This document shows positions 1 to 17,589 of a stretch of DNA of 64,000 bases, piece by piece. Each line of letters starts with the position of its first letter. Position 1 is the first letter of the stretch. The stretch spans positions 96,001 through 160,000 of the IMG/VR virus record IMGVR_UViG_3300027810_000002. One strand, written 5' to 3'. The notes under the pieces were generated by a model that searched no databases, was not told the origin of the DNA, and worked only from the letters and a program-made list of their open reading frames with translations. The translations under genes were made by a program, and so were the position numbers. Source of the DNA: a virus.

Positions 1-2340
1 AGTATTACCTTTTGCTCCTTGGAATCCTCTTGGTCCTCCATTTCCAGTAAGTCCTTTATAACCTTGAGGTCCTACTTGTTGATATCCCTGAGATCCTTTA
101 AGTCCAACTCCTAGACTGCTACCAGTGTTTCCTTGAACTCCTCGAACTGTTCCAGTTGGTCCTTTATAACCAGTAGGTCCTTTATTTCCTGTCCAACCTG
201 TAATAGTAGTTCCGGTGGTTCCTCTTAATCCCTGAGGTCCTGTATATCCTTGAACTCCTTTTGGACTTGCTCCACCATTACCTTGTGCTCCTTGAGGTCC
301 AGTATATCCTTTTGCTCCTCCGGGTTGTGATCCTTTAAGACCTTGAGGTCCCTTAGTACCAACTTTACCTTGATATCCCTTAGGCATTGCTCCTTTAGAA
401 CCCTGAGTTCCTTGGGCTCCTTGTGGTCCTCTATGTCCAGTTAAAGAATCTCCAGTTGGGCCGGTGTTACCGGTTAGTCCTTTATAACCTGTAACTCCTT
501 TATGTGATGTTGGACGTGCGCCTTGATTTCCTTGTGGTCCTCTTGGTCCAGTGCTTCCGGTTGGTTGTGCTCCTTTATCTCCTTGAGTACCCTGTGCTCC
601 TTGTGGTCCTCTTGATCCTCCGGGCTGTGCTCCTTTATCTCCTTGGAATCCTCTTGGTCCTGTTAGTCCAATAAATCCTTTTGGCTGAGCTCCTTTATAT
701 CCTTGAACTCCTTGAGCTCCTTGAACTCCTCTAAATCCTGTTGGATTTGCTCCTTGGAAACCTCTTTCTCCATTAATTCCTTTGAAACCGGTTGCTCCTG
801 TTGGTGAAGATCCTTGAACTCCTCTTGGTCCAGTACTTCCAATAAATCCAGTATACCCCTTTGGCATTGCTCCTCTAATTCCTTGGAATCCTCTTGGTCC
901 TGTTGGTCCTGTTGGCGAAGTTGGTCTAGCTCCTTGAAAACCTCTTGGTCCCGTATTTCCAGCATCACCGATAAGTGCGTTATATGCAGGTCCTGTTGGT
1001 CCTGTATATCCTGTTGGTCCGTTTGGTCCTATGTGTCCTTTTGGACTTGCTCCGATATTACCAATTGCTCCTTGAGATCCTTTAAGACCAGTATATCCCT
1101 TTGGACTTGGTCCTGTATATCCTGTTGGTCCGTTTACTCCTTTATCTCCTTGGAATCCTCTATTAGTACTTCCTTGAGATCCTCTAATACCCTGTACTCC
1201 TTGAAACCCTCTTGGTCCTGTTGGTGAATTACCAATAGCTCCTTGAAAACCTCTTGGTCCAGGATCTCCTGTTTGAGCAGCTGGTGTACTTCCAGTATTT
1301 CCTTGAAAACCTCTTTCTCCGTTTAATCCTTTGTCTCCAACTGGATTTGCTCCTTGTGCTCCTTTAAAACCAGGATAACCTTCAGCTCCTTGAAAACCTT
1401 TTGGACTATTTCCAACGTCTCCTTGAAAACCTCTGTCTCCGTTCAATCCTTTGTCTCCAACTGGATTTGCTCCTTGTGCTCCTTTAAAACCAGGATAACC
1501 TTCAGCTCCTTGAAAACCTTTTGGACTATTTCCAACGTCTCCTTGAAAACCTCTGTCTCCAGTTTGTCCTACTTGTGCAGTTTGAGTTGAACCCTGTGCT
1601 CCTTTTAATCCAGTTGCACCCTGTGAACCTTTATGTCCTTTTTGATTTGTACCTGCAGAACCTTGAAATCCTACATGTCCAACAAAACCAGTTGCTCCAC
1701 CAGGGTTTAACCCCGTAGTACCTTGATCTCCTTGAAAACCTCTGAAACCAGTTGCTCCTGTTAATTGATCTCCCTGAAACCCTCTTGGTCCATCAGGTCC
1801 AATATCACCAACGTAAGCTGTAATTACATTACCCTGTGATCCGGTTGAACCTTGATCTCCTTTTAGTCCTTTAAGACCATTAGTTATTTTACCTGCATCT
1901 CCAACTGTTCCTTGATTTCCTCTAAAACCTTCTGGTCCTTCTGGTGAATCTCCAACTGTTCCTTGGAATCCTCTAAAACCTTGATCAGCAGTACCTTTAT
2001 TTCCTTGAAAACCTCGATCTCCTTGAAAACCTATATTACCTTCATAACCTTGATGTCCTTGTGGACTGTCTCCTTGAAAACCTCTGAAACCAGTATCTCC
2101 AACAGGTTCTAAACCCGCAGATCCTTGAACTCCTTTATCTCCTTGAAAACCTCTATCTCCTTGAGAACCTTGAGAACCTTCAATACCTTGAAAACCTTGA
2201 TCTCCTTGAAAACCTTGAGCTCCAACAATACCTTGGTCTCCCTGGTCTCCTTTCAATTCAGGATAGTTATTAGCATCAAAGTTACCAGTATGTAGGGGAG
2301 TTTCTCCCCCTACAAGTGATCCTGTATTTAATTTTGCCAT
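1..2340 (-). CDS. Collagen-like fibre protein C (3' end runs off window), with periodic G4G interruptions
   Basis: Absent from ORF track. ATG at 2340 gives [31 protein letters not shown] then Gly-X-Y; segments translated by hand (aa 1-340 and the last line) stay in one open frame; N-terminus paralogous to 2381..5041. Confidence 0.9.
1301..1560. repeat. 120-bp (40-aa) tandem duplication in collagen C
   Basis: 1321-1440 and 1441-1560 are nearly identical. Confidence 0.9.
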
Positions 2341-2380
2341 GTTATTTTTATTCTTTTTTTATATATAATTAACTTATTGA

Positions 2381-5041
2381 TTATACTATGAATCCGTTTG
2401 TTACAGTAAATGGTGTACCATTGTCATCTACAAAAAATCCATTAAAACCATTACCAGTAGGTCCAGATCCAGGCCACCCAGCATAACCGATTTTACCCTG
2501 AGGTCCAAAGTTAGTTGGTCCATTACTTCCAGTTGCTCCTCTTGCTCCTGTTGATCCAGATCCTCCAGAAGATCCTTGAGCTCCTCTTGGTCCTGTTGAT
2601 CCTACTAAACCTTGATATCCTGTAGATCCTGGAGATGCAGCCTGTCCTTGAAATCCTCTTGAACCTTGAGATCCTGGTATTCCTGTATATCCTTGAAATC
2701 CTCTTGGTCCTGTTGGTGGGGTTGATCCTTTATATCCTGTTGGTCCATTACTACCTTGTGGTCCTCTTGACCCCGTTGGTCCTGTTGAACCTTTAGCTCC
2801 CTGTGGTCCTTTATAACCTTGTGCTCCTTGTGGACCCGTTGGTCCTTTATAACCTCCACCTCCGGTTGCTCCAGTTCCTCCTTGATATCCTCTTGGTCCA
2901 GTATTACCTTGTGCTCCTTGTGTACCTTGGAATCCTGTTATTCCTCTGTCTCCAGTGGCTCCTTGTGGTCCTCTGTCTCCCACTGCTGAAGTAGTTCCAG
3001 TAATACCTTTTTTACCAATAAATCCAGTATAACCTTTTGCTCCAGTTGCTCCCTGTGATCCAGTTGATCCCTGTGCTCCTTGATTTCCTTTAGCTCCAGT
3101 ATTTCCCTGTACTCCTGTTAATCCAGTTGCTCCTTTAAATCCAGTATAACCAGTTACTCCCTGTGCTCCTTGATTTCCTTGTGATCCGTTAACTCCTGTT
3201 TTACCAATAAATCCAGTATAACCTGTTGCTCCGGTAGATCCTTGTGAACCATTAACTCCAGGATAACCAGTTGGTCCCGTTGGTCCTTGATTTCCAACGG
3301 CTCCAGTTCCTCCAGTTACTCCTTTAGCTCCAACAAGTCCAGTATAACCTTTTGCTCCGGTTGCGCCCTGTGCTCCTGTAAATCCAGTAGGTCCTGTTGA
3401 ACCTTTAACTCCTTGTGCTCCTTGTGCTCCTTTTACATTAGTAAATCCTTGAGGTCCCGTTGGTCCTTGAGGACCTGTGTTACCAACATTAGATGTTGTT
3501 CCTGTTAATCCTTTAAAACCAGTAGCTCCTTTTGCTCCTTGTACTCCTTGTACTCCTGTTAATCCTTTATAACCGGTAGCTCCTTTTGCTCCTTGTGCTC
3601 CTTGTGCTCCTTTAGGTCTTTGAGATCCCTGAGGTCCCTGAGCTCCTTTTGCTCCTTGAGAACCTTTATTACCAGTAGCTCCTTTAGCTCCTATTGCTCC
3701 TTGGAATCCTCTTTCACCAAGTTCTCCAGTGTTTCCTATAGTACCCTGAGGTCCAGTTGATCCCTGTGCTCCTTGATTTCCTTTTAATCCTTCAAATCCT
3801 GTTGAACCAACAACTCCTCTATAACCAGTATCTCCTTTGAAACCGGTAAATCCTGTAGCTCCTTTAGCACCTTGTGCTCCAGTAACTCCTTGGAATCCCT
3901 TTGGTCCCGTTGGTCCTTGTGGTCCTCTTCCACCAGATCCACCAGTTAATCCTTGATAACCAGTTGCTCCAGTATTACCTTTAGTTCCTTGATTTCCTTT
4001 AGCTCCAGTATCTCCTTTAAGGCCGTTAATTCCTTTAATACCAACATATCCAGTAGAACCTTTAGCTCCTGTTGCTCCTTGAAAACCTGTTGCTCCAGTA
4101 TTACCCTTAGTTCCTTGATTTCCTTTAGCCCCAGTATCTCCTTTAAGTCCGTTAATTCCTTTAATACCAACATATCCTGTAGAACCTTTAGCTCCTGTTA
4201 CTCCTTGAAAACCTGTTGCTCCAGTAGATCCTTGTGTTCCTTGAGATCCAGTACTTCCTTTATCTCCTGAAAGACCTTGAAATCCTCTTTCACCAGGATC
4301 TCCTGGTAAAGAATCCGAAGCAGTTGCTCCTTTAAATCCTTTTTGTCCTGTTGAACCTTTAGATCCCTGAGATCCTTTAACTCCATTAGTTCCAGGTAAT
4401 CCTTCAAAACCAGTAGATCCTTTAGATCCCTGTGCTCCATTAACTCCGGTAAATCCTTTTAAACCGGTTGAACCTTGCGATCCTTTATTTCCTTTAACTG
4501 ATGTTGCTCCTTTAGCTCCTTGGAATCCTCTTTCTCCAGTATCTCCTTGTGTACCTTGTGTACCTTTAATACCGAGAGAACCTTGACTTCCTTGAAAACC
4601 TCTTTCTCCGTTAATTCCTTTTACACCCTGTGCTCCAGTAGCTCCTTGGAATCCTTGAAGTCCAATAGAACCTTGATCGCCGACTTGTCCTTGATACCCA
4701 TTAGAACCATTAGGACCTAATATACCTGTTATTCCTTTTTCTCCTCTAATTCCAGTTGCACCGGTAAAACCTTGAAGACCATTTGATCCTTGATTACCTT
4801 TACTACCAGTAGATCCTTGATCACCTTGAATACCTTGATAACCATCAGTTCCAACGAAACCTTGATTACCTGTATCACCTTGATGACCGACACTACCGTC
4901 GGATCCAACAGATCCTTGGGATCCTTGAGATCCCAATTCACCGTTTGGTCCAATAAGCTGAGGAAAATTCGTGCTATTAAGGTTACCACTGTGTAATACA
5001 AGATTACTGTCTAACGTAGTACCTAAGATAAATTTTGCCAT
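2381..5041 (-). CDS. Collagen-like fibre protein B
   Basis: 886 aa; 30-aa N-cap, ~830 aa Gly-X-Y, short C-cap ending TVTNGFIV. Confidence 0.92.
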   Translation of the reverse strand: MAKFILGTTLDSNLVLHSGNLNSTNFPQLIGPNGELGSQGSQGSVGSDGSVGHQGDTGNQGFVGTDGYQGIQGDQGSTGSKGNQGSNGLQGFTGATGIRGEKGITGILGPNGSNGYQGQVGDQGSIGLQGFQGATGAQGVKGINGERGFQGSQGSLGIKGTQGTQGDTGERGFQGAKGATSVKGNKGSQGSTGLKGFTGVNGAQGSKGSTGFEGLPGTNGVKGSQGSKGSTGQKGFKGATASDSLPGDPGERGFQGLSGDKGSTGSQGTQGSTGATGFQGVTGAKGSTGYVGIKGINGLKGDTGAKGNQGTKGNTGATGFQGATGAKGSTGYVGIKGINGLKGDTGAKGNQGTKGNTGATGYQGLTGGSGGRGPQGPTGPKGFQGVTGAQGAKGATGFTGFKGDTGYRGVVGSTGFEGLKGNQGAQGSTGPQGTIGNTGELGERGFQGAIGAKGATGNKGSQGAKGAQGPQGSQRPKGAQGAQGAKGATGYKGLTGVQGVQGAKGATGFKGLTGTTSNVGNTGPQGPTGPQGFTNVKGAQGAQGVKGSTGPTGFTGAQGATGAKGYTGLVGAKGVTGGTGAVGNQGPTGPTGYPGVNGSQGSTGATGYTGFIGKTGVNGSQGNQGAQGVTGYTGFKGATGLTGVQGNTGAKGNQGAQGSTGSQGATGAKGYTGFIGKKGITGTTSAVGDRGPQGATGDRGITGFQGTQGAQGNTGPRGYQGGTGATGGGGYKGPTGPQGAQGYKGPQGAKGSTGPTGSRGPQGSNGPTGYKGSTPPTGPRGFQGYTGIPGSQGSRGFQGQAASPGSTGYQGLVGSTGPRGAQGSSGGSGSTGARGATGSNGPTNFGPQGKIGYAGWPGSGPTGNGFNGFFVDDNGTPFTVTNGFIV
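3971..4222. repeat. 126-bp (42-aa) tandem duplication in collagen B
   Basis: GATGFQG[V/A]TGAKGSTGYVGIKGINGLKGDTGAKGNQGTKGNT occurs twice. Confidence 0.9.
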
Positions 5042-5076
5042 GTTATTATTTTTATATTTTTATTTGTTTTATATTG

Positions 5077-7950
5077 TTATCCGATATTTACACCGTTTAC
5101 AATAGTACGTGCTCCTCCTGCTGCTAAAACAGTTCCGTTATATCCAGAATTTGCAGCAGAAATACCTTGAATTCCTTGTGGTCCTCTTACTCCGGTACCA
5201 GAACCACCTGTGGCTCCTTGATAACCTTGAGGTCCTCGAGATGCAGGTGATCCTGATGCTCCAGTATATCCTTTAGGTCCTTGTGCTCCGTTTGGTCCTT
5301 TTAATCCTGTAGATCCTTGTGATCCTGATATTCCTTTATATCCTTGAACTCCTCTTGGTCCTGTACTACCATTAGGTCCTATATAACCTTGTACTCCACG
5401 TGCTCCTACTGATCCAGTGGTACCCTTTACTCCTTGAGGTCCTGTATATCCTTGAGCTCCTTGTGCTCCTTGGTTTCCTTGAGCTCCTCTTACAGTACCT
5501 GCAAGTCCAATAAAACCTTTAAGTCCGGTTGAACCTTGTGGTCCTCTTCCTCCCTGTGGTCCTATTGGTCCAGTATATCCTTTTGGTCCTGTTGCTCCTT
5601 GGAATCCTCTGTGACCTGGTGCACCACCATAACCTTGTGCTCCAGTTGGTCCTGTATAACCCTGTACTCCTTGAGTTCCTCTTGCAGCCGCAGTTCCCTG
5701 TGGTCCAGTTAGTCCTTTATTACCAGTAGCTCCCTGTGGTCCTCTTGGTCCAGTAGATCCTTTAAAACCTGTATCTCCTTTTGCTCCTTGGAATCCTCTA
5801 ATTCCTTGTGGTCCAAGATCTCCAGTAGGTCCAGTTGCTCCTTTAGGTCCGATATATCCGATATATCCTTTTGGTCCAGTTGCTCCTTGAGGTCCTTTAG
5901 TTCCTTTTGCTCCAGTTGCTCCTTGATTACCCTTTGGTCCAGTTATTCCCTGAACTCCTTTTGCTCCTTGAAAACCTTTTGTTCCTTGGGCTCCTTGAGG
6001 TCCAGTATTTCCTTGAGGTCCTCTAATAGTTCCAGTACTTCCAATTACTCCTTGAAAACCTTTGTTTCCAGTAGCTCCGGTTGCTCCTTGATTACCTTTA
6101 ATTCCTTGGAATCCTCTGTCACCAGTTGCTGCAGTAGATCCTTTAAGACCTTGGAATCCGTTTGTTCCTTGGAATCCTTGGAATCCTCTTGGTGCAGCAG
6201 TTCCCTGTGCTCCGGTATTTCCTTGAAATCCAATCTTTCCAGTTGGTCCTAAATTACCAGTTGCTCCGGTATTTCCTTGAACTCCAATAAATCCTTTATC
6301 TCCTTTAGTTGCACTTGGGGCAATATATCCAGTGTCTCCTTGTGTTCCTCTGTCTCCAGTTGCTCCTTGATTACCTTGTGATCCTGTTACTCCAGTATAT
6401 CCTTTTGCACCAGTAGTACCTTTAGATCCTTGGAATCCTCTTGGTCCACTAGATCCTTGATGTCCTCTTTCACCAGCATCTCCTTGAACTCCTTTTGAAC
6501 CTTGTGGTCCAACTGCTCCAACAGATCCCTGTGCTCCTGTTACTCCAGTGTTTCCTTGAACTCCAATTGCTCCTGTTGATCCTTTATCTCCAATTGCTCC
6601 TTGAGGTCCTGTATAACCTTTTGCTCCTTGTGCTCCAAGAGGTCCTGTTAAACCTTTAGCTCCTTGATTTCCTTTGAAACCTTGATCTCCTTTAAGACCA
6701 ACATTTCCAATAATACCTTGATTTCCTTGGAATCCTCTTGAACCAGTATTACCCTGTGCTCCAGTAGATCCTTTTAAACCTTTAGCTCCTTGGTTTCCTT
6801 TGAAACCTTGATCTCCTTTAAGACCAACATTTCCAATAACACCTTGGTTTCCTTGAAAACCTCTTGAACCAGTATTACCCTGTGCTCCAGTAGATCCTTT
6901 TAAACCTTTAGCTCCTTTTGATCCTTTAAAACCTCTTTCACCAATGATACCATCGGCTCCAGTAGATCCTTGATAACCAGTTGCTCCAGTAGATCCTTGT
7001 GTTCCTATTACTTTATTAATACCAGCGTCTCCTTGAGTTCCTTGATTTCCTTGAAAACCTCTGTCTCCTACGGGTCCGTTAATACCTGTTGTTCCTTTAA
7101 TTCCTTTGTCTCCTTGGAATCCTCTGGCTCCATTTGAACCATTATTTCCTTTTGCTCCTTGAGGTCCTGTAAATCCAACGTCTCCTTGTGCTCCTCTGTT
7201 TCCATCAAGTCCTTTATAACCTGTTGCTCCAGTTGAACCTTTAAAACCTTGATCTCCGATTACCCCATCAGAACCTTGATCACCTTTATAACCGGTAACC
7301 CCTTGATTTCCCTGAACTCCAATAGGTCCAGTAACTCCTTTGTTTCCGACAGATCCTTGGAATCCTCTGGCACCATCTGCACCTGTTAAACCCTTAGTAC
7401 CTTGAGTACCTTTAGTTCCTTGATTTCCTTGGAATCCTCTTTCACCTTGATTTCCAACAATACCTTGAGTTCCTTGGAATCCTCTTTCACCTTTAGCTCC
7501 AGTAGTACCTGAAATACCAATATCTCCTACTAATCCTTTACTACCACGTGATCCTTCACTACCAGTATCTCCTACTAATCCAGTATTTCCAAGAGAACCT
7601 TTATCTCCACGAAAACCTTCATCACCCGTATTTCCTTTTGCTCCTTTTAAAGAAAGAAAATTACCCGGAATAAAATTACCAGGTCTTATCACTAGATTAC
7701 CACCGATTGTTGAATCAGCTTTAAAGTTTCCACCACCATCAAAAGTACCACCCGCTATAATTGCGGAATCAGTACTCCTAATAGTTAACACATTCCCCGC
7801 AGGGAATGTGTTTAACTCTTCTAGGTAAGACGGCGTATAGACGATAGCTGAACCTTGGTCGATACCTGCTCTGTTCGAAGTTTCATCGATCTGAGCCTGG
7901 AATTCTCCGGTAGATTGTACTAGTTTTATCGCTATTTTATTAAATGCCAT
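5077..7950 (-). CDS. Collagen-like fibre protein A with ~100-aa N-terminal domain
   Basis: 957 aa; Gly-X-Y from G103; C-cap ending TIVNGVNIG resembles that of B. Confidence 0.92.
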   Translation of the reverse strand: MAFNKIAIKLVQSTGEFQAQIDETSNRAGIDQGSAIVYTPSYLEELNTFPAGNVLTIRSTDSAIIAGGTFDGGGNFKADSTIGGNLVIRPGNFIPGNFLSLKGAKGNTGDEGFRGDKGSLGNTGLVGDTGSEGSRGSKGLVGDIGISGTTGAKGERGFQGTQGIVGNQGERGFQGNQGTKGTQGTKGLTGADGARGFQGSVGNKGVTGPIGVQGNQGVTGYKGDQGSDGVIGDQGFKGSTGATGYKGLDGNRGAQGDVGFTGPQGAKGNNGSNGARGFQGDKGIKGTTGINGPVGDRGFQGNQGTQGDAGINKVIGTQGSTGATGYQGSTGADGIIGERGFKGSKGAKGLKGSTGAQGNTGSRGFQGNQGVIGNVGLKGDQGFKGNQGAKGLKGSTGAQGNTGSRGFQGNQGIIGNVGLKGDQGFKGNQGAKGLTGPLGAQGAKGYTGPQGAIGDKGSTGAIGVQGNTGVTGAQGSVGAVGPQGSKGVQGDAGERGHQGSSGPRGFQGSKGTTGAKGYTGVTGSQGNQGATGDRGTQGDTGYIAPSATKGDKGFIGVQGNTGATGNLGPTGKIGFQGNTGAQGTAAPRGFQGFQGTNGFQGLKGSTAATGDRGFQGIKGNQGATGATGNKGFQGVIGSTGTIRGPQGNTGPQGAQGTKGFQGAKGVQGITGPKGNQGATGAKGTKGPQGATGPKGYIGYIGPKGATGPTGDLGPQGIRGFQGAKGDTGFKGSTGPRGPQGATGNKGLTGPQGTAAARGTQGVQGYTGPTGAQGYGGAPGHRGFQGATGPKGYTGPIGPQGGRGPQGSTGLKGFIGLAGTVRGAQGNQGAQGAQGYTGPQGVKGTTGSVGARGVQGYIGPNGSTGPRGVQGYKGISGSQGSTGLKGPNGAQGPKGYTGASGSPASRGPQGYQGATGGSGTGVRGPQGIQGISAANSGYNGTVLAAGGARTIVNGVNIG
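6664..6915. repeat. 126-bp (42-aa) tandem duplication in collagen A
   Basis: GAKGLKGSTGAQGNTGSRGFQGNQG[V/I]IGNVGLKGDQGFKGNQ occurs twice. Confidence 0.9.
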
Positions 7951-7998: not shown

Positions 7999-10782
7999 TT
8001 AATCGAATGAGAATGTAATGTCTCCATTTGCGTCTCTTTCAATTCTTGCTGTTGGGTTACCATTAACATCGTTAAAATAAATAGCTTTATCATTGGCGAT
8101 TGTTATTGAATCTCCATCAAATGCACCAGTTTCTCCTTGATCTCCTTTAGTACCTTGAACTCCTTGAATACCATCGTCTCCTTTGAAACCTTGATCTCCT
8201 TTAGCTCCAGTATCTCCTTTGAAACCTTGATCTCCTTTAATACCTTGAATACCTTGAATACCATCGTCTCCTTTGAATCCTTGATCTCCTTTAATACCTT
8301 GAATACCATCGTCTCCTTTAATACCTTGAATACCATCGTCTCCTTTAGTACCCTGAACTCCGATAACTCCTTGTTCTCCAGTATCTCCTTTGAATCCTTG
8401 ATCTCCTTTAGCTCCAGTATCTCCTTTGAAACCTTGATCTCCTTTAATACCTTGAATACCATCGTCTCCTTTAGTACCTTGAACTCCGATAACTCCTTGT
8501 TCTCCAGTATCTCCTTTGAATCCTTGATCTCCTTTTAAACCAGTATCTCCTTTGAAACCTTGATCTCCTTTTAAACCTTGAATACCATTGTCTCCTTTGA
8601 ATCCTTGATCTCCTTTTAAACCAGTATCTCCTTTAGCTCCAGTATCTCCTTTGAAACCTTGATCTCCTTTAATACCTTGAATACCATCGTCTCCTTTAGT
8701 ACCTTGAACTCCTTGAATACCATCGTCTCCTTTAGTACCTTGAACTCCTTGAATACCATCGTCTCCTTTAGTACCCTGAACTCCGATAACTCCTTGTTCT
8801 CCTTGAATACCTTGAATACCATCGTCTCCTTTTAAACCTGTATCTCCTTGAATACCCTGTTCTCCTTGAATACCCTGTTCTCCTGTATCTCCTTTAAGAC
8901 CAGTATCTCCTTGAATACCTTGAATACCATCGTCTCCTTTAATACCTTGAATACCATCGTCTCCTTTAGTACCTTGAACTCCGATAACTCCTTGTTCCCC
9001 TTGGAAACCTTGAATACCTTGCTCTCCAGTATCTCCTTTGAAACCTTGATCTCCTTTTAAACCTTGAATACCATCGTCTCCTTTAGTACCTTGAACTCCT
9101 TGAATACCATCGTCTCCTTTAGTACCTTGAACTCCTTGAATACCTTGTTCTCCTGTATCTCCTTTAAGACCTGTATCTCCTTTGAATCCTTGATCTCCTT
9201 TAAGACCAGTTTCTCCTTGAATACCTTGAATACCATCGTCTCCTTTAGTACCTTGAACTCCTATAACTCCTTGTTCTCCTTGAATACCATCGTCTCCTTT
9301 AGTACCCTGAACTCCGATAACTCCTTGTTCTCCTTGAATACCTTGAATACCATCGTCTCCTTTAGTACCCTGAACTCCGATAACTCCTTGTTCTCCTTGA
9401 ATACCTTGAATACCATCGTCTCCTTTGAATCCTTGATCTCCTTTAGTACCTACAGTACCTTGAACTCCGATAACTCCTTGTTCTCCAGTATCTCCTTTTA
9501 AACCAGTATCTCCTTGAATACCTTGAATACCATCGTCTCCTTTGAAACCTTGATCTCCTTGAATACCTTGTTCTCCTTGAATACCTTGAATACCATCGTC
9601 TCCTTTAGTACCTACAGTACCTTGAACTCCGATAACTCCTTGTTCTCCTGTATCTCCTTTAAGACCAGTTTCTCCTTGAATACCTTGAATACCATTGTCT
9701 CCTTGGAAACCTTGTTCTCCTTGAATACCTTGTTCTCCTTGAATACCTTGAATACCATTGTCTCCTTGGAAACCTTGTTCTCCTTGAATACCTTGAATAC
9801 CATCGTCTCCTTTAAGACCAGTTTCTCCTTGAATACCATTGTCTCCTTGGAAACCTTGTTCTCCTTGAATACCTTGTTCTCCTTGAATACCTTGAATACC
9901 ATCGTCTCCTTTAGTACCTTGAACTCCGATAACTCCTTGTTCCCCTTGGAAACCTTGAATACCTTGTTCTCCTGTATCTCCTTTAAGACCAGTTTCTCCT
10001 TGAATACCCTGTTCTCCAGTATCTCCTTTGAATCCTTGATCTCCTTGAATACCTTGTTCTCCTGTATCTCCTTTAAGACCAGTTTCTCCTTGAATACCCT
10101 GTTCTCCAGTATCTCCTTTGAATCCTTGATCTCCTTGAATACCTTGAATACCATCGTCTCCTTTGAAACCTTGATCTCCTTGAATACCTTGAATACCATC
10201 GTCTCCTTTGAAACCCTGATCTCCTGTATCTCCTTTAAGACCAGTTTCTCCTTGAATACCTTGAATACCATTGTCTCCTTGGAAACCTTGTTCTCCTTGA
10301 ATACCTTGAATACCCTGTTCTCCTGTATCTCCTTTAAGACCAGTTTCTCCTTGAATACCTTGAATACCATTGTCTCCTTGGAAACCCTGTTCTCCTTGAA
10401 TACCTTGAATACCCTGTTCTCCTTGATCTCCTTTAAGACCATCTACTCCTTGATCTCCTTTAAGACCATCTACTCCTTGATCTCCTTGTTCCCCTTGGAA
10501 ACCTTGAATACCTTGTTCTCCTTGATCTCCTTTAAGACCAGTTTCTCCTTGAATACCAGTGTCTCCTTGGAAACCCTGTTCTCCTTGAACACCTTGAATA
10601 CCTTGTTCACCGGTATCTCCTTTAAAACCTTGATCTCCTTGAAGACCTTGATCTCCTTGAAAGCCTTGAACCCCATCAATACCTTGATCTCCTTGAAGAC
10701 CTTGATCTCCTTGCGCTCCTTGATATCCGGATCCTTGATCTCCCTGGGGACCTGCGGTAGAAATATATGCTGAATATGCCAT
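7999..10782 (-). CDS. Acidic, highly repetitive collagen-like protein D
   Basis: 927 aa built from a few triplets (GIQ, GEQ, GDD, GFK, GDT, GTK); almost no Pro; ~35-aa C-terminal domain. Confidence 0.92.
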   Translation of the reverse strand: MAYSAYISTAGPQGDQGSGYQGAQGDQGLQGDQGIDGVQGFQGDQGLQGDQGFKGDTGEQGIQGVQGEQGFQGDTGIQGETGLKGDQGEQGIQGFQGEQGDQGVDGLKGDQGVDGLKGDQGEQGIQGIQGEQGFQGDNGIQGIQGETGLKGDTGEQGIQGIQGEQGFQGDNGIQGIQGETGLKGDTGDQGFKGDDGIQGIQGDQGFKGDDGIQGIQGDQGFKGDTGEQGIQGETGLKGDTGEQGIQGDQGFKGDTGEQGIQGETGLKGDTGEQGIQGFQGEQGVIGVQGTKGDDGIQGIQGEQGIQGEQGFQGDNGIQGETGLKGDDGIQGIQGEQGFQGDNGIQGIQGEQGIQGEQGFQGDNGIQGIQGETGLKGDTGEQGVIGVQGTVGTKGDDGIQGIQGEQGIQGDQGFKGDDGIQGIQGDTGLKGDTGEQGVIGVQGTVGTKGDQGFKGDDGIQGIQGEQGVIGVQGTKGDDGIQGIQGEQGVIGVQGTKGDDGIQGEQGVIGVQGTKGDDGIQGIQGETGLKGDQGFKGDTGLKGDTGEQGIQGVQGTKGDDGIQGVQGTKGDDGIQGLKGDQGFKGDTGEQGIQGFQGEQGVIGVQGTKGDDGIQGIKGDDGIQGIQGDTGLKGDTGEQGIQGEQGIQGDTGLKGDDGIQGIQGEQGVIGVQGTKGDDGIQGVQGTKGDDGIQGVQGTKGDDGIQGIKGDQGFKGDTGAKGDTGLKGDQGFKGDNGIQGLKGDQGFKGDTGLKGDQGFKGDTGEQGVIGVQGTKGDDGIQGIKGDQGFKGDTGAKGDQGFKGDTGEQGVIGVQGTKGDDGIQGIKGDDGIQGIKGDQGFKGDDGIQGIQGIKGDQGFKGDTGAKGDQGFKGDDGIQGVQGTKGDQGETGAFDGDSITIANDKAIYFNDVNGNPTARIERDANGDITFSFD

Positions 10783-10816: not shown

Positions 10817-11581
10817 TTAGTCTAATGAGTTTTTCTCGTATACTATATCGAAAAGATCTCCTCCTCCGATTTCATATCCTGCGAAATTTGAATTCCAAAA
10901 CAGTTCATCACCAGCTTCTAAATCTGCAACAGATTTGGCAGTGATACCTGCGTTGTTAGAGAAATATACATCTCCTGTTTTTTCTCCGTAAGTTTCAGTA
11001 ACAGCTACACCGTTAATATAAACCTGTACAGTTGAATCTGCGAAAGGAGTATAGTCTAATGTAATACCTGTTGCTGATTCATCTCCGTTAGATGCAAGAG
11101 GTGCTAAATCAGCCTGTGTGTATTCAGTACCTTGTGCTACCTGAGTTGGACCTAAACTTGGTCTCCATGGTAATACTTGTGCTTTTGTTGCTGAAATCGC
11201 TTGTAAAACTGGATTGCTGTATGCATACACTGGATCAGAAGCATTCACAAACGCTGAGATAGAACCTGAATCAGATTCATCAACTACGTAAAAAGTACCT
11301 GGAGTTAAATTCCAAGTTGATACTTCAATGTTACCAATTTGTACTGCAATAAAATTAGAATCATCAGTAGCTTCTTCAACTACTAATCTTCCCAATTTGT
11401 CGGCAGTTTTAGAATCTGCTAAAACCCAAGAACCGTTAAAGAATGCAATAACATTCCCTGCTGCAAAACCATGAGCAGCTTGTTCGTAACTTGATTTTAA
11501 AGATCCTGATGCCAGTTGAGAATCGATAGACTCTAACTTTGTCTGTAAGCCTTCGATTTGCTTAATTTTTAATTGTGACAT
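10817..11581 (-). CDS. Putative virion structural/decoration protein
   Basis: C-terminal domain (YTPFADSTVQVYING...GDELFWN...AGYEI) paralogous to the C-terminus of 16336..17589; N-terminal MSQLKIKQI resembles MAQIRSKQI of 14378..16150; late motif upstream. Confidence 0.7.
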   Translation of the reverse strand: MSQLKIKQIEGLQTKLESIDSQLASGSLKSSYEQAAHGFAAGNVIAFFNGSWVLADSKTADKLGRLVVEEATDDSNFIAVQIGNIEVSTWNLTPGTFYVVDESDSGSISAFVNASDPVYAYSNPVLQAISATKAQVLPWRPSLGPTQVAQGTEYTQADLAPLASNGDESATGITLDYTPFADSTVQVYINGVAVTETYGEKTGDVYFSNNAGITAKSVADLEAGDELFWNSNFAGYEIGGGDLFDIVYEKNSLD

Positions 11582-11706: not shown

Positions 11707-12297
11707 ATGATAAATAGTATAATGAATAGTATTACTAAGAAGATAGTTAGAGATTACATATATTTTAGAGAAACATTAGATGACGTAAAAACTATTTCTA
11801 GTGATGCGGAAGGTATGTTTAGGGACGCGATGCACGATCATAATGAGGTTGCACTAACAGCTCTCACTCCACCAGAAGGAGCACCTCCTATTAAAAAAAT
11901 TGATGAAGAACTTGTTGTAAAATTTGAAGACAAGCTCTTTAAAAAGCTTTTTAGAAAGATAGCAGTATTATGCCATCCGGATAAATTAGATGATTCTTAC
12001 TCTGAAAGAGAAGCTACATTTTTAAAAAAATGCTATGAAGATCTCAATACTTCTAACCAAACATACGATTGGGGATTGTTGTTGAAAGTTGCTATGGAAC
12101 TGGATGTTGAAATTCCGGAATTAAGCGATGAGCAATTTATTAACATTAATAATAATATAGAATCTATTAAAAATACTATTAACCAGTTTGAAGGATCTAT
12201 GGCTTATAAATGGTATACCCTCTCCGACACTGATGCCAAGAAAGGGTATTTAGAAAGCTGTGCTTCTATATTTATGGATAGTTTAAAGAATCGTTAA
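11707..12297 (+). CDS. J-domain-like (HPD) protein
   Basis: KKLFRKIAVLCHPDKL matches J-domain helix II plus the HPD motif. Confidence 0.65.
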   Translation: MINSIMNSITKKIVRDYIYFRETLDDVKTISSDAEGMFRDAMHDHNEVALTALTPPEGAPPIKKIDEELVVKFEDKLFKKLFRKIAVLCHPDKLDDSYSEREATFLKKCYEDLNTSNQTYDWGLLLKVAMELDVEIPELSDEQFININNNIESIKNTINQFEGSMAYKWYTLSDTDAKKGYLESCASIFMDSLKNR

Positions 12298-13076
12298 ACG
12301 TCCCACTTATTAGTTAGATGACATCTTACATAAACAGGTGCCTGATACGCAATACCATTAGGATATTCTGATTGCAATCTCGTATAAAAGTCTACATCTT
12401 CTGACGTGTCTTTAGAGATAATATCTCTCCATTTTGTTGATAAATTAGATTTGTGCATAAATAACCAAGGTGCCATTATCTGTCTGTCTGGTTTTACTTG
12501 AATTGGCTTCCATGCCTCTGGTAAACCTTCTATCTGAATTGCCGGTGTTTCTGAAGGATCTAATATAGCATTCCCATTAGCTAGCTCAGTTGAAACAGAC
12601 TCATGATCAAACCATGAGGTATTTATCCACCAATCTTTTTCTGGGTTTGCGTTAAAATATAAAAGAGATGTCATCGTTGCGTTTGGCATTAAAAAATCAT
12701 CTGAATCCATATACATTACAACGTGGCCGGTTGCTGCAGCTGCACCTAGTCTTCTACCGAATCCTCTATAATATCTTCCTTTATCTTCTATTTCCTCGTA
12801 CATTTGAGGAGTGTCTGTTCTATCGAAATATATTAGTTTTATATTTGGTGTGTTCTTGTGTGATCTATTAAATAGTTGATGTGTTTTATTACACCCATCT
12901 GCTACTATAATAAGTTCGCAGTTTTTATATGTTTGGTTTTGAAAACTTTCGACTGCCCTGTGAAATTTACCAATAGGATCTTTTCTTGAATTTTCGTAGT
13001 TTTCTAGGTTTACTTGCATCACTATAGATATTTTTATCTTGTTTAGTGATTCGAATATTTCTTTAAAATTGCTCAT
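12294..13076 (-). CDS. Glycosyltransferase family 2
   Basis: AVESFQNQTYKNCELIIVADG, YMDSDD (DxD), SEDVDF. Confidence 0.85.
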   Translation of the reverse strand: MSNFKEIFESLNKIKISIVMQVNLENYENSRKDPIGKFHRAVESFQNQTYKNCELIIVADGCNKTHQLFNRSHKNTPNIKLIYFDRTDTPQMYEEIEDKGRYYRGFGRRLGAAAATGHVVMYMDSDDFLMPNATMTSLLYFNANPEKDWWINTSWFDHESVSTELANGNAILDPSETPAIQIEGLPEAWKPIQVKPDRQIMAPWLFMHKSNLSTKWRDIISKDTSEDVDFYTRLQSEYPNGIAYQAPVYVRCHLTNKWDV

Positions 13077-14272
13077 TATTTATATAGGTTTGTTTTCCAA
13101 TTATATTTATAAGATAATTCATGTGTTCCTGGTTTAAATAAATTATCTATTAACTTTTTATATGTATCTACCAGATCCGCGTTAGTTGACAAATAACGGT
13201 CTAATACTTTTTTACTGTTTTCATTATATTGATCTAGGTTATTGTCATGTTCCTCAAGTGCCAATTTTAATTGATCGGCTCCTTGTGATATATTAAATCC
13301 TTCATAATAATATCCTGCATCCTTTATCATGTCTGCATTGTGCACTATAGGGTACCCAAAATAGAGTGCGTCTAAGTATGCATAGTTTAATGGGTTTTCC
13401 CATTGGTGTGATAAGACTATGTCGGTTTCACTTGCTAAGAACGTCGATACTGGGTACCTTCCAACATACTTTATTTTGTTATCTGGAGAGTTAACTATGT
13501 CGAAATTCTTAATCATCGATAAATAGTATTTATTCTTTAGTAATTTCTTGCCAGATCCTATGTATATTTGTTTAAACGCGTTTTTACCGGATTCTCTAAA
13601 AACTCTTTCAGCGATCATGATAGTCATCAATGAATATTTAACAACATTTATATTTGGTTCCATTACAGATAACTTTTTATCTTTAGCATCCTTTGGAATA
13701 TATCCCGGAATCAATTTGCCGGCACGTTTTAGTAATTTATTAAATTCATCAAGCGGCTCAGGGTCCCATATGAAAGGAACTGTTTTTATCTGAGAATCCT
13801 CTTGTCTGTATATTGTTTTAAAGTATTCTAGGTTTTGATATTCCTGTTGAGGTATTACCCATGTTTCGTCGTGGCCTCCATCCCATGAAGGAACCATTGA
13901 CTCGGTAATTGTATCAAACATTACTCGTTCCATGTCAACTACATAACTATTTCCACATTGGTATTTTACTACTTTTAAATTTGGATTTTTGCTTTTCATT
14001 AAAGATATCCTACTTGTAGGCAAAGAAGCACCTACCATAAACATTAAGTCTATCTCATTCTCCATCGCTGTAAATTTTGCGATTTTATATTTATTATAAT
14101 CCCAGTTTACTTTAGTTAAATCAGAAACATTCTTAGCTGCGTCTAAAATATAAACATCAAGTCCTTCTATTTGGTTTAACATTTTAGATAGGTTCAGCGC
14201 ATTTAATTTAATGCCGTTGATCCACATGCTTTCATATTCCTTTGTTAGGGATATTATAATTCCTACTTTCAT
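13076..14272 (-). CDS. DUF2827-like putative GT-B glycosyltransferase
   Basis: SMWINGIKLN, VPFIWDP, MEPNINVVK, SHQWENPLNYAYLDALYFGYPIVHN, DAGYYY are characteristic of DUF2827. Confidence 0.8.
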   Translation of the reverse strand: MKVGIIISLTKEYESMWINGIKLNALNLSKMLNQIEGLDVYILDAAKNVSDLTKVNWDYNKYKIAKFTAMENEIDLMFMVGASLPTSRISLMKSKNPNLKVVKYQCGNSYVVDMERVMFDTITESMVPSWDGGHDETWVIPQQEYQNLEYFKTIYRQEDSQIKTVPFIWDPEPLDEFNKLLKRAGKLIPGYIPKDAKDKKLSVMEPNINVVKYSLMTIMIAERVFRESGKNAFKQIYIGSGKKLLKNKYYLSMIKNFDIVNSPDNKIKYVGRYPVSTFLASETDIVLSHQWENPLNYAYLDALYFGYPIVHNADMIKDAGYYYEGFNISQGADQLKLALEEHDNNLDQYNENSKKVLDRYLSTNADLVDTYKKLIDNLFKPGTHELSYKYNWKTNLYK

Positions 14273-14377: not shown

Positions 14378-16150
14378 TTAGTGTTGGTAAACGAATACTA
14401 CTTCGTCTTGTGCATCAATTACATAACCTGGGTTAGATAAAGTAACCTGTGGTCCTGCAACTGTTTGAACAAATACTCTGTGTCCGTTAACAAATACATC
14501 TACTAAAGATGATTGGTCTTCTTGTACAGGGTGTGCTAAACTGTAAACTAATCCAGCTCCAGCGAATGTTTCAGTAGCCATTTGATCATCTTCGATGATA
14601 GCAGCTTCTAATACATCTAATCTACCGTCTTGAACTGATTGCTCAGCGTCAGTAGAAGCGATTTCAGCAGCTAGTGCAGAATCAATTCTTGTAACGTCAG
14701 CGTTAGTAGCAACGATTTCAGCGTTTAACTGAGATTGTAAATCAGAATCAGCTTGATCTCTTGCTAATTCCTCAGCAGCCATTTCAGCGTCATGCTTAGC
14801 TTCTAATGAAGTAAAGTCTGCGTTAGTAGCAGCGATTTCATCAACTAAACCAGCTTCAACCTCTGATACTCTCGTATCGATTGAAGTAAATTCAGCAGTG
14901 ATAGCTCCTTCTAAAGAAATAACATCAGAATTAGTAGCAGCGATTTCAGCAGATAAAGCAGTATCGATTCTAGTAACATCAGAGTTAGTAGCAGCGATTT
15001 CAGCAGATAAAGCAGAATTGATACTAGTGATATCAGAATCAGTAGCAGCGATTTCAGCGTTTAAGTTAGAAATTACTACAGCTAAAGCGTTATCATTTAC
15101 AGTATCAACAGCGTTGATTAAAGAAACAACCTCAACGAATGTATCTTTGTCAGCGTCAGCAGCTAATAAGATTGCGTCGATTCTTGCGTTTTCTGCATCA
15201 ATGTTAGCTTGTAACGTTGAGTCAGCAGCAGCATAAGCAGCTTCAACTCTTACGAAGTCAGAATTAGTAGATGCAATTTCTGCAGCTAATTCTCCTTCAA
15301 CTCTTGTAAAGTCAGAGTTAGTAGAAGCGATTTCAGCAGCTAGTGCAGAATCAATTCTTGTAACGTCTCCATTAGTAGCTAAAACTTCAGCGTCTAATTC
15401 AACTCTTAAGTCAGATACTTCATCAACTAAATCTCCAGATACTTCTCCTAATCTTAAGTCAATAGAAGTAACATCAGAATTAGTAGATGCGATTTCATTG
15501 TCTAAAGCAGATTGTAATGCAGTGTCAGCTTGCTCTCTTGCTAATTCCTCAGCAGACATTTCAGCGTCATGCTTAGCCTCTAAAGAAGTGAAGTCAGAGT
15601 TAGTAGCTGCAATCTCTGCAGATAATTCTCCTTCAACTCTTGTAAAGTCAGCGTTTGTTGCAGCGATCTCTTGAGAGATTGCTAAGTTAATGCTTGTGAA
15701 ATCTGCGTTAGTTGCAGAGATCTCATTGTTTAAGTCAACGATTACCGCTCCTAAAGCGTTATCATTTTCTAAATCAACAGCATTGATTAAAGAAACAACC
15801 TCAACGAATGTATCTTTATCAGCATCAGCTGCTAATAAGATTGCGTCGATTCTTGCATTTTCTGCATCAATGTTAGATTGTAACGTTGATTCAGCACCTT
15901 CAGCTCTTGATTGTTCAGTAGATAAATCTCCTTCTAATCTAGAAACGTCTGTGTTTGTAGCTGATACTTCACCAGCTAAAGCAACTTCTAAAGAGTCAAT
16001 TGATGCGTCTAATTCCGTTTGAGCTGCAACTATCTCATCACCAACGTACTTTGCGATGTCAGATGTGTTTGCAATCTCAAAAGAAGATGTAGCTGCCCAG
16101 TTTACTGTGCTTAAGAAATCCTTAATTTGTTTTGAACGAATTTGTGCCAT
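14378..16150 (-). CDS. Acidic coiled-coil fibre/whisker protein
   Basis: Repeated AEIAATNSD motif; duplicated STLQxNIDAENARIDAILLAADADKDTFVEVVSLINAVD block; C-terminal VFVNG...GY domain. Confidence 0.75.
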   Translation of the reverse strand: MAQIRSKQIKDFLSTVNWAATSSFEIANTSDIAKYVGDEIVAAQTELDASIDSLEVALAGEVSATNTDVSRLEGDLSTEQSRAEGAESTLQSNIDAENARIDAILLAADADKDTFVEVVSLINAVDLENDNALGAVIVDLNNEISATNADFTSINLAISQEIAATNADFTRVEGELSAEIAATNSDFTSLEAKHDAEMSAEELAREQADTALQSALDNEIASTNSDVTSIDLRLGEVSGDLVDEVSDLRVELDAEVLATNGDVTRIDSALAAEIASTNSDFTRVEGELAAEIASTNSDFVRVEAAYAAADSTLQANIDAENARIDAILLAADADKDTFVEVVSLINAVDTVNDNALAVVISNLNAEIAATDSDITSINSALSAEIAATNSDVTRIDTALSAEIAATNSDVISLEGAITAEFTSIDTRVSEVEAGLVDEIAATNADFTSLEAKHDAEMAAEELARDQADSDLQSQLNAEIVATNADVTRIDSALAAEIASTDAEQSVQDGRLDVLEAAIIEDDQMATETFAGAGLVYSLAHPVQEDQSSLVDVFVNGHRVFVQTVAGPQVTLSNPGYVIDAQDEVVFVYQH

Positions 16151-16335: not shown

Positions 16336-17589
16336 TTACCTTAGATCGTCGGATTTTGCTTCGTATATTAAATTGATCTCGTCTCCGATTTCTAATTCAT
16401 ACCCTGCAATATCTCCATTCCAATATAATTGATCTCCTGATCTAATCTCTTCAACGCTTGCAGCCGCTAATCCGCTATTACCTGAAAAATACGCGTCTTT
16501 GTCTTTAGTTCCATCTCCAACTTCAACACTAAGTCCGTTTACTTCAACCATAACATAAGAATCTTGATATGGTGAATACGTTATTAGTATTCCTGTTGCA
16601 GAATGATTTCCTACAGATGCTGATGGGTTTATATTCTTATCAACGTACGTTAAGATACCACTTTCACTAGCAGCTCCGCCTCCTTCAAAATTAAAAGTGC
16701 TTCCGGCAGCATGTGCATCTAGCGTATATGTTACTTCTTGATCTATTTCCCATTCTGTTTTTGTAACACCAGGCCCTGCTGATGCCGCTTCCATTGTTAC
16801 ATGTACCTTTATACCATCGCTGTCATCGTCAATTCCATTTCCCGAGGTAATATCAACTCTTTCCCATGTCTCTATTTTATAAATAGCGTACAGGTTTGAA
16901 TCCGATTGATCTATTATTGTAATTACTCCACTTATTTTATCATTAGTTATTCTTTTCTCTAAAAAGTTTTCTAGAGTTGTTAATCTAGTGTTGTTTGAAT
17001 TTAAGTTTCTAAATATTATAGTTTTAACTGCCATTGGGTAATGGGAATCAACTGTTAAATACCCAGGTGCCGTTGGATTAGAACCATCGATCTCTTGTAT
17101 TGTAAACGTTCCCGTACTAGAAGGTGCTTGTATTATTGTAGTAGTTCCTCCACCTGTTTCTCCAGATGGATCTCCATTGTCTATTACTGGATTGTTAATA
17201 ACGTCTCCAAGTAATAGTCTTGGGAATACGTAGTTTTTAGGTTGCGGATAATAGTTTTCGTAGTATACGCTTATCTGTGCATATAATCTACCAGATGACA
17301 AGTGAGTTGAGTTAGTTTCGTTAATATTAAAACTTATTTTACCTGTATCGTCTACTAAATCAACGTCTAAATCAACAGAAACTCCTGAAATAGAAGGTCT
17401 TGAAAATTGCAAAACTTTTTTATCTTCAACGTAAAGAGCAACATTAAATGATGTTGGTTGATTTAAATTCAATACAGATCCTATAAAATCTTTATATAAT
17501 ATGATATCATATGTCTGTGAATTTCCTTGAATGAAGTTTGATCCCCCGTCAATAAATGCTATTATATCGTCCTTTGCTACGTAAGCCAT
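16336..17589 (-). CDS. Putative virion structural protein
   Basis: 417 aa, beta-rich; C-terminal domain paralogous to 10817..11581; late motif upstream. Confidence 0.65.
   Translation of the reverse strand: MAYVAKDDIIAFIDGGSNFIQGNSQTYDIILYKDFIGSVLNLNQPTSFNVALYVEDKKVLQFSRPSISGVSVDLDVDLVDDTGKISFNINETNSTHLSSGRLYAQISVYYENYYPQPKNYVFPRLLLGDVINNPVIDNGDPSGETGGGTTTIIQAPSSTGTFTIQEIDGSNPTAPGYLTVDSHYPMAVKTIIFRNLNSNNTRLTTLENFLEKRITNDKISGVITIIDQSDSNLYAIYKIETWERVDITSGNGIDDDSDGIKVHVTMEAASAGPGVTKTEWEIDQEVTYTLDAHAAGSTFNFEGGGAASESGILTYVDKNINPSASVGNHSATGILITYSPYQDSYVMVEVNGLSVEVGDGTKDKDAYFSGNSGLAAASVEEIRSGDQLYWNGDIAGYELEIGDEINLIYEAKSDDLR

What the first reader, a model, noticed from the sequence alone, without database searches (positions are those of the whole stretch)
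1..7950. Three collagen chains in register: candidate phage hetero-oligomeric collagen
Seen: chains A (5077..7950), B (2381..5041) and C (<1..2340) share a ~22-aa motif just before the first collagen Gly: IGGNLVIRPGNFIPGNFLSLKG, LDSNLVLHSGNLNSTNFPQLIG and [22 protein letters not shown]. From that Gly, A has 855 residues and B has 856, with similar C-caps. A and B each carry one recent 42-aa tandem duplication of unrelated sequence, both starting 243 residues after the first Gly. C carries a 40-aa duplication containing two one-residue-short interruptions (42 equivalents) starting at 230 residues plus 10 earlier interruptions (240 equivalents). Inference: three separate duplications of equal axial length at the same axial position imply strong selection for register matching. 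The chains would then co-assemble as an ABC heterotrimer or an in-register bundle. Established: characterised prokaryotic and phage collagen-like proteins are mostly described as homotrimers, whereas chain selection is familiar from animal collagens. At ~0.29 nm per residue the rod would be ~240 nm.
Basis: partly seen in the sequence, partly recalled or inferred. Interest (0 to 1): 0.85.

Follow-up and report, generated by a model that had tools for sequence, protein, structure and literature searches.

The report
Phage three-chain (ABC) collagen fibre
Three neighbouring genes of an uncultured marine jumbo phage encode different collagen chains whose lengths, length changes, break points and contact residues fit together only as one mixed triple helix, a design so far described for animal collagens but not for viruses or bacteria; the case is computational.

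Summary
Completed from the genome, chain C is 869 aa, and the register-corrected collagen lengths are 825/828/828 (A/B/C). Relatives gain or lose segments in all three genes together: 42/42/40, 63/63/60, 126/126/120 aa. Lengths match across 13 loci spanning 480-828 residues; inserted globular domains do not count. The strongest evidence: Lys/Arg-to-Asp/Glu pairs are enriched only for B→A (+1 triplet), A→C (+1) and C→B (+2), the published leading/middle/trailing geometry (52 seen, 17.6 expected; 0 of 400 shifted controls). B-A-C ranks first of 27 registers in all 15 loci. Homotrimers show no signal, whereas neighbouring single collagens do. A model of the three N-terminal ends passed (0.61, best control 0.02). 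Chain C drops one residue every 21 positions, 30 times running, so the ~237-nm rod is probably regularly kinked (inferred). Caveats: no physical data; three assemblies have a short chain C (collapse or real mismatch); the copies are homogenised, so 'recent' is unproven; virion location is inferred. The scan found this system before on other DNA (e1-5354748).

The parts
5077..7950 (-). Chain A gene, 957 aa; middle strand of the predicted triple helix
7708..7950 (-). Chain A N-terminal extension (81 aa) that B and C lack; candidate anchor to the virion (inferred); no family or fold found
   Evidence: residues 69-80 touch chain C's cap in the complex model
7642..7707 (-). Chain A cap motif ending in the first collagen Gly
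5158..7644 (-). Chain A collagen region, ~825 axial residues, 9 interruptions
6629..6917 (-). Chain A tandem duplication, 126-nt (42-aa, 14-triplet) unit
2381..5041 (-). Chain B gene, 886 aa; leading strand
4949..5041 (-). Chain B N-cap (30 aa plus first Gly)
2471..4951 (-). Chain B collagen region, ~828 axial residues, 9 interruptions
3945..4226 (-). Chain B tandem duplication, 126-nt unit
1..2340 (-). Chain C gene (part inside the window; it ends 270 bases before the window starts; 869 aa in all); trailing strand, 828 axial residues from 795 real ones
2248..2340 (-). Chain C N-cap (30 aa plus first Gly)
199..1953 (-). Chain C periodic zone: 30 one-residue-short interruptions (Gly+4 or Gly+7 residues), one per 20 residues (21 axial positions)
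1300..1560 (-). Chain C tandem duplication, 120-nt (40-aa, 42-equivalent) unit
7999..10782 (-). Gene D, a fourth collagen with no cap motif; not part of the heterotrimer; internal control (free length, homotrimer contact signature)

Best explanation
Genes A, B and C each supply one strand of a single ~237-nm collagen triple helix, in the register B leading, A middle, C trailing. Shown by sequence: equal axial lengths, indels shared by all three genes, coincident interruptions, and Lys-Asp, Arg-Tyr and Gln-Phe pairs placed between chains in the published triple-helix geometry. Inferred: the three paralogous 30-residue N-caps select and align the chains, and the inter-chain pairs hold the register along the rod and disfavour homotrimers. 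Inferred: chain A's extra N-terminal domain anchors one asymmetric fibre to the virion surface. Inferred: chain C's missing residue every 21 positions puts a small kink or flex point at regular intervals, giving a curved or coiled fibre that a homotrimer could not encode. Inferred: the fibre is a long adhesion or host-capture stalk, since relatives hang lectin-like and carbohydrate-binding-like domains on it. Length changes by whole 21-residue units through tandem-repeat expansion and loss, and selection keeps genomes in which all three chains match.
For: (1) Contact geometry. Salt pairs peak only at B→A +1 (104), A→C +1 (135) and C→B +2 (84) against a background near 45, pooled over 7 loci. 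This is the i+2, i+2, i+5 rule of PMC11923368. In this genome B-A-C has 52 pairs against 17.6 expected (z 9.9); the best of 27 registers in 400 circular shifts reached at most 4.8; homotrimers gave z 0, -1.1, -1.6. (2) The most enriched pairs in that register are Arg-Tyr (185 vs 28), Lys-Asp (268 vs 89), Lys-Asn, Ile-Pro and Gln-Phe (217 vs 105); KD, RY and QF are the axial pairs used to design synthetic heterotrimers (10.1101/2024.05.21.595195). With these three, B-A-C ranks first of 27 in 15 of 15 loci and in every quarter of the rod. (3) Positive control: gene D and three single-gene S74 collagens of related phages give a homotrimer signal, z 7-8.5. (4) Shared indels 42/42/40, 63/63/60, 126/126/120 and about 129/129/123; the single-copy state recurs in other samples (L082, L099). 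(5) Axial lengths agree within 3-9 residues in 11 of 13 loci over 480-828, while 157-185-aa inserted domains in A or B are not counted; gene D varies from 180 to 1279 aa. (6) 13 of 14 A/B interruptions lie within one triplet of a C break (chance 0.45 each). (7) Complex model of the three N-terminal ends: score 0.61, best of 3 controls 0.02; the mark was reached by 58 of 80 solved complexes and 2 of 110 mismatched pairs; runs agree in at least 96% of contacts, partner pLDDT at least 75. Its Gly contacts (A103-C31, B34-C31) fit the same order. (8) In L032 the gene order differs (A, C, B by cap tree) yet the B-A-C order holds.
Against: No protein has been made or seen. In L083, L089 and L103 chain C is one repeat unit (40-60 aa) short of A and B; this may be assembly collapse, but real mismatched phages are not excluded. 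L008 (798/777/774) and L085 (651/666/654) match less well under my counting rule. The complex pass may partly reflect likeness to solved collagen helices, and homotrimers were not modelled. The loci are related, so they are not 15 independent tests. About 33 one-chain deletions must destabilise the helix, and no solved structure of such interruptions exists. Location on the virion and the adhesion role rest on context only.
Confidence: 0.88

Rival explanations
1. Each chain forms its own homotrimer, and A3, B3 and C3 pack side by side as an in-register bundle.
For: It would also explain matched lengths and shared indels. [quoted passage not shown]
Against: AAA, BBB and CCC show no enrichment, or depletion, of stabilising pairs, unlike gene D and the S74 collagens. 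The cyclic +1/+1/+2 pattern is specific to strands within one helix. Lengths match in Gly-register units, not in real residues (795 for C against 826-827).
Confidence: 0.06
2. The register match is a leftover of gene triplication from one ancestral collagen, with no co-assembly.
For: The caps are paralogous and a shared 21-residue ancestral period could align breaks.
Against: The duplicated units are unrelated in sequence. Later indels hit all three genes together in four comparisons. Common ancestry would give a symmetric pattern, not a one-way B→A→C→B cycle.
Confidence: 0.02
3. The heterotrimer is real but is not a virion fibre: it acts in the infected cell or is released as a decoy or matrix, or it adopts a non-canonical or higher-order collagen bundle.
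For: No match to a known virion attachment domain for the caps. The genes lie about 17 kb or more from the baseplate genes of this genome.
Against: At the same locus more distant phages carry one collagen with an S74 chaperone typical of phage fibres. An insert in a relative's chain B resembles a phage head-spike fibre domain (E 3e-7, below cut-off).
Confidence: 0.04

Closest known systems
Animal ABC heterotrimeric collagens: complement C1q (A, B, C chains; own knowledge) and collagen IV alpha3-alpha4-alpha5 / collagen IX (PMC11923368, PMC7824840)
   Same: Three different genes give one strand each; defined register; inter-chain Lys-Asp/Glu bridges in the i+2, i+2, i+5 geometry; interruptions that differ between chains.
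   Different: Viral; no C1q, NC1 or C-propeptide domain, only 30-residue caps; no cysteines; little Pro at Y (about 2%); about 30 evenly spaced one-chain deletions instead of a single kink or scattered breaks; heavy use of Arg-Tyr, Gln-Phe and Lys-Asn pairs.
Phage collagen-like proteins: SPP1 gp12 capsid spike (PMC7602432), PRD1 capsid collagen segments (PMC8968730), and S74-chaperone collagen fibres of related jumbo phages (L016-L065)
   Same: Gly-X-Y rod in a tailed phage; same genomic position as the S74 fibres, just upstream of DUF6445.
   Different: Those are single-gene trimers; here three genes, no S74 chaperone, and no homotrimer contact signature.
Bacterial collagen-like proteins BclA and Scl2 (PMC8968730; 10.1101/2025.06.24.661383)
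   Same: Hydroxyproline-independent sequence, Thr-rich Y position, stabilising salt bridges.
   Different: Described as homotrimers; heterotrimers were tested by modelling and rejected for C. difficile BclA, and only speculated for Pasteuria Pcl (PMC7743900).
Designed ABC collagen-mimetic peptides (HT1-3, PDB 8TW0; 10.1101/2024.05.21.595195)
   Same: Register set by axial KD, RY/RF and QF pairs.
   Different: Synthetic peptides some tens of residues long; this is a natural rod of 276 triplets.

Membership tests
Collagen triple-helix proteins (PF01391) | Long Gly-X-Y repeat | tested here: met
   Pfam Collagen above cut-off for A, B and C; 259, 257 and 199 perfect triplets
Collagen triple-helix proteins (PF01391) | Folds physically into a triple helix (CD, protease resistance, structure) | not testable with these tools
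   Only a model of the first 15 triplets
ABC heterotrimeric collagens (works like) | Three distinct chains of equal helical length | tested here: met
   825/828/828 here; within 9 residues in 11 of 13 loci
ABC heterotrimeric collagens (works like) | One defined chain register with inter-chain pairs in leading/middle/trailing geometry | tested here: met
   B-A-C first of 27 registers in 15 of 15 loci
ABC heterotrimeric collagens (works like) | A non-collagenous domain that selects the chains | tested here: inconclusive
   N-caps form three chain-specific groups and are modelled together, but homotrimeric caps were not modelled and the C-caps were not tested
ABC heterotrimeric collagens (works like) | 1:1:1 stoichiometry shown biochemically | not testable with these tools
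   needs co-expression or virions
C1q / animal collagen families (membership) | C1q, NC1 or COLFI trimerisation domain | tested here: not met
   Pfam finds only Collagen in A, B and C; tails are 26-44 aa
Homotrimeric prokaryotic or phage collagen-like proteins | Self-complementary pairs in a homotrimer register | tested here: not met
   z at or below 0 for AAA, BBB, CCC, against 7-8.5 for gene D and S74 collagens
S74-chaperone phage fibres | C-terminal Peptidase_S74 domain | tested here: not met
   absent from A, B, C; present in the single collagen of L016
Virion surface fibre | Present in the particle | not testable with these tools
   context only

The most novel reading that the evidence does not exclude
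A phage family has independently evolved an obligate, single-register ABC collagen and uses the asymmetry to program shape: one strand is one residue short at every seventh triplet, so the rod bends regularly into an arc or coil, while single strands carry swappable binding domains or a self-cleaving Hint tail. It would be a natural heterotrimeric collagen outside animals with a readable chain-selection and curvature code.
Probability: 0.5. Interest if true: 0.9.

Novelty: new variant of a known kind. Interest (0 to 1): 0.8.

Why it matters
[quoted passage not shown] I found no paper on a viral or bacterial heterotrimeric collagen in the library searched, which lacks most subscription journals. 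A 2025 paper says that native chain alignments cannot be verified and that interruptions differing between chains are structurally not understood (PMC11923368). This family offers a cysteine-free three-chain collagen, without Pro at Y to hydroxylate, whose register can be read from many natural variants. It has about 30 regularly spaced one-chain interruptions and 30-residue caps that may serve as heterotrimerisation modules. That makes chain selection and the geometry of such interruptions directly testable in bacterial expression systems. It also shows three genes changing length in step, a clear case of multi-gene compensatory evolution.

Tried and rejected
The search for homologous proteins with A's N-terminus found nothing, and the representative search gave only fragments; relatives came from DNA scans instead. 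No match for A's N-terminal part in GenBank phages, Pfam or the Atlas; PHROGs and PDB matched only collagen repeats; cap hits to ankyrin repeats are chance. The single-chain fold of A's N-terminus was poor (pLDDT 48) and was not searched. PDB 8ZXL/9IUS, the top collagen hit, belongs to a study of extracellular-matrix collagen assembly and is irrelevant. The 'goes back 2846' joint most likely comes from contigs running past the window edge and was not counted. Only contigs, not raw reads, were available, so variants lacking one duplication could not be counted. An RNA run covers all three genes, but contigs cannot show transcription, so it is not used as support. The promoter scan was at chance level. 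L083's apparent C-B-A register was a one-triplet parsing offset; corrected, it is B-A-C. Assembly collapse as the cause of L002's short chains was rejected because L082 and L099, from other samples, share the single-copy state. The KD+RY+QF set was chosen; the test fixed in advance is the salt-pair test.

Full report
Setting. The window lies in a 175,162-base linear virus record, 34% GC, estimated 66% complete. It carries a T4-type portal, DNA end protector, baseplate wedge and hub. Its DNA polymerase is closest to uncultured huge phages (39-45% identity), Sphingomonas phage PAU and Lak phages. Runs that hold the stretch are mostly marine. The upstream regions of the ten genes I looked at are A-rich and lack a Shine-Dalgarno motif, which from my own knowledge suggests a Bacteroidota host; this is inference. 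Four collagen genes lie head to tail on the minus strand, D-A-B-C, 35-48 bases apart, with a terminator-like hairpin after C.

Observation. The coordinates, cap motifs, the 855 and 856 counts and the three duplications are as reported. The genome completes chain C at 869 aa. Counting each interruption as the nearest whole number of triplets, the collagen parts are 825, 828 and 828 residues long, about 237 nm. Chain C has a one-residue-short break every 20 residues, 30 times in a row; 32 of its 36 breaks fall at the same phase of a 21-residue period. Thirteen of 14 breaks in A and B lie within one triplet of a C break, against 0.45 by chance for each. The duplications are real: the copies differ slightly, other assemblies hold them, and contigs of three runs break at them.

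Relatives. Scans with A's N-terminus, the downstream DUF6445 gene and a cap alignment gave 15 complete three-gene loci counting this one. L003 has all three duplications and L002 lacks all three; L082 and L099 confirm the short state in other samples. Other pairs differ by 63/63/60, 126/126/120 and about 129/129/123 residues: always whole 21-position units, with C shorter by one residue per unit. Across 13 loci the three axial lengths run from 480 to 828 and correlate at 0.998; 11 agree within 9 residues. Globular inserts of 157-185 aa sit in A, in B or in both and do not count towards the length. Gene D varies from 180 to 1279 aa. In the L032 lineage one chain is one residue long and another one residue short at the same six joints, 42 positions apart. 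Three assemblies break the rule, all with chain C one unit short (L083, L089, L103). In L083 and L089 the contact pattern after the gap is restored by padding exactly the missing unit, so these C genes are not adapted to their short length. Collapse of near-identical repeats or a transient natural mismatch both fit; I cannot tell them apart. Copies within a genome differ by 0-5 nt in A and B but by 5-33 nt between genomes. So either the arrays are homogenised or the same unit duplicated more than once; 'recent' is unproven.

Heterotrimer or bundle. In a triple helix a Lys of the leading or middle chain pairs with Asp/Glu at i+2 of the next chain, and a Lys of the trailing chain pairs at i+5 of the leading chain (PMC11923368). 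Scanning all chain pairs and offsets, basic-to-acidic pairs peak at exactly three cells: B→A +1 triplet, A→C +1 and C→B +2. In this genome the B-A-C register holds 52 pairs against 17.6 expected; no circular shift of 400 came near; homotrimers are at or below expectation. The pairs most enriched in this register are Arg-Tyr, Lys-Asp, Lys-Asn, Ile-Pro and Gln-Phe. KD, RY and QF are the pairs chemists use to design ABC peptides (PMC9599227). With those three, B-A-C has 140 pairs against 36.9, ranks first of 27 in all 15 loci, and holds in each quarter of the rod including the duplicated part. The same test gives a homotrimer signal for gene D and for three single-gene S74 collagens (z 7-8.5), so it can see homotrimers. 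The z values are approximate and the loci are related; the single-genome shift test is the safe figure. A note of this scan on a related genome (e1-5354748) mentioned contact residues and prompted this test, which I ran independently.

Model. The first 75, 147 and 75 residues of B, A and C scored 0.61 against a best control of 0.02 (mark reached by 58 of 80 solved complexes and 2 of 110 mismatched pairs; runs agree in at least 96% of contacts; partner pLDDT at least 75). Replacing A abolished the score, and the Gly contacts fit the order B, A, C. Collagen helices, including designed ABC peptides, are in the PDB, so this shows compatibility rather than binding.

How it probably works. Shown: register, order and coupled lengths. 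Inferred: the paralogous caps, which form three chain-specific groups, align the strands, and the inter-chain pairs zip them in one register without disulfides or hydroxyproline at Y. Twenty-one residues is one superhelical turn of a strand in the 7/2 form (own knowledge), which would put all C breaks on one face and bend the rod into an arc. Imino-poor sequences favour the looser 10/3 form (PMC7824840), in which the breaks would spiral and give a coil. Interruptions that differ between chains have been proposed to kink the helix but no structure exists. Function as a virion adhesion fibre is inferred from three things. Distant relatives have a single S74-chaperone collagen at this locus. The 172-aa insert folds with high confidence into a concanavalin/SPRY-type sandwich (pLDDT 90, TM about 0.6) and occurs in A of some phages and B of others. 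The 154-aa insert weakly matches a carbohydrate-binding module and a head-spike fibre domain. Head or tail attachment is unknown. Flanking 2OG-Fe(II) oxygenase, DUF6445 and glycosyltransferase genes may modify the Thr- and Lys-rich rod; untested.

Comparison and novelty. It works like C1q or collagen IV heterotrimers but is not a member of those families, having none of their trimerisation domains. It fails the homotrimer test that fits known phage and bacterial collagen-like proteins. Reviews describe those as homotrimers; a heterotrimer was modelled and rejected for C. difficile BclA and only speculated for Pasteuria. My searches found no report of a viral heterotrimeric collagen, within the limits of the library. 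This scan has noted the same system on a related genome and similar three-gene sets in giant viruses and a bacterium; those notes are unchecked except where I retested them.

Verdict. A real feature with strong, multi-line sequence evidence for an obligate B-A-C collagen heterotrimer (0.88). The regular curvature and the virion role are plausible but unproven. New variant of a known kind; interest 0.8.

Noticed in passing
window 7999..10782 (gene D); L002 156..3674; L003 6107..9946: Fourth collagen of very low complexity with a homotrimer contact signature; length varies 180-1279 aa, and close relatives carry a ~150-aa inserted domain that this genome lacks.
   Followed up: partly
L008 6927..9890; L009 7228..9510; L084 12560..15523: Chain C of some relatives ends in a Hint/intein-like domain (starts Cys-Leu, ends His-Asn, followed by Arg); it may cleave itself off. 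Absent here, where C ends in a Gly-rich tail.
   Followed up: partly
L009 5707..6222; L012 4745..5257; L085 2035..2550; L098 1625..2140 and 3595..4113: A mobile 172-aa concanavalin/SPRY-fold module inserted into chain A or chain B at different rod positions; weak sequence match to a PDB 'structural protein' (26gp_Q, E 0.0014).
   Followed up: yes
L032 3735..8787 (also L075): A lineage with gene order A, C, B, all caps 30 aa long, and paired +1/-1 interruptions every 42 positions (raw periods 43/42/41); the B-A-C register is kept.
   Followed up: yes
genome 92238..95621 (just before the window start); window 12294..14272: Collagen genes are flanked by a 2OG-Fe(II) oxygenase, a two-domain glycosyltransferase, DUF6445, another GT2 and DUF2827; DUF6445 lies just downstream of collagen genes in many relatives. 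Possible fibre-modifying pathway.
   Followed up: partly
window 40935..47075 and 54832..60513: A fifth collagen (2046 aa, weak homotrimer signal z 2.8) and a 1893-aa fibre-like protein with a short collagen stretch; their N-termini look alike.
   Followed up: partly
window 10817..11581, 14378..16150, 16336..17589: Three unannotated genes upstream of the collagens: two share a similar N-terminal peptide, the 590-aa one is a repetitive coiled-coil-like protein, and the 254-aa one has a weak Hoc-like hit (E 0.005). They may form the fibre's attachment.
   Followed up: no
L083 8102..10573; L089 5580..7715; L103 4209..6305: Chain C alone is one repeat unit short; it is always C and always shorter. 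Unexplained: collapse or natural intermediate.
   Followed up: partly
L016-L065, upstream of DUF6445: More distant phages carry a single collagen gene with an S74 chaperone tail at the same locus, suggesting exchange between one-gene and three-gene fibres.
   Followed up: partly
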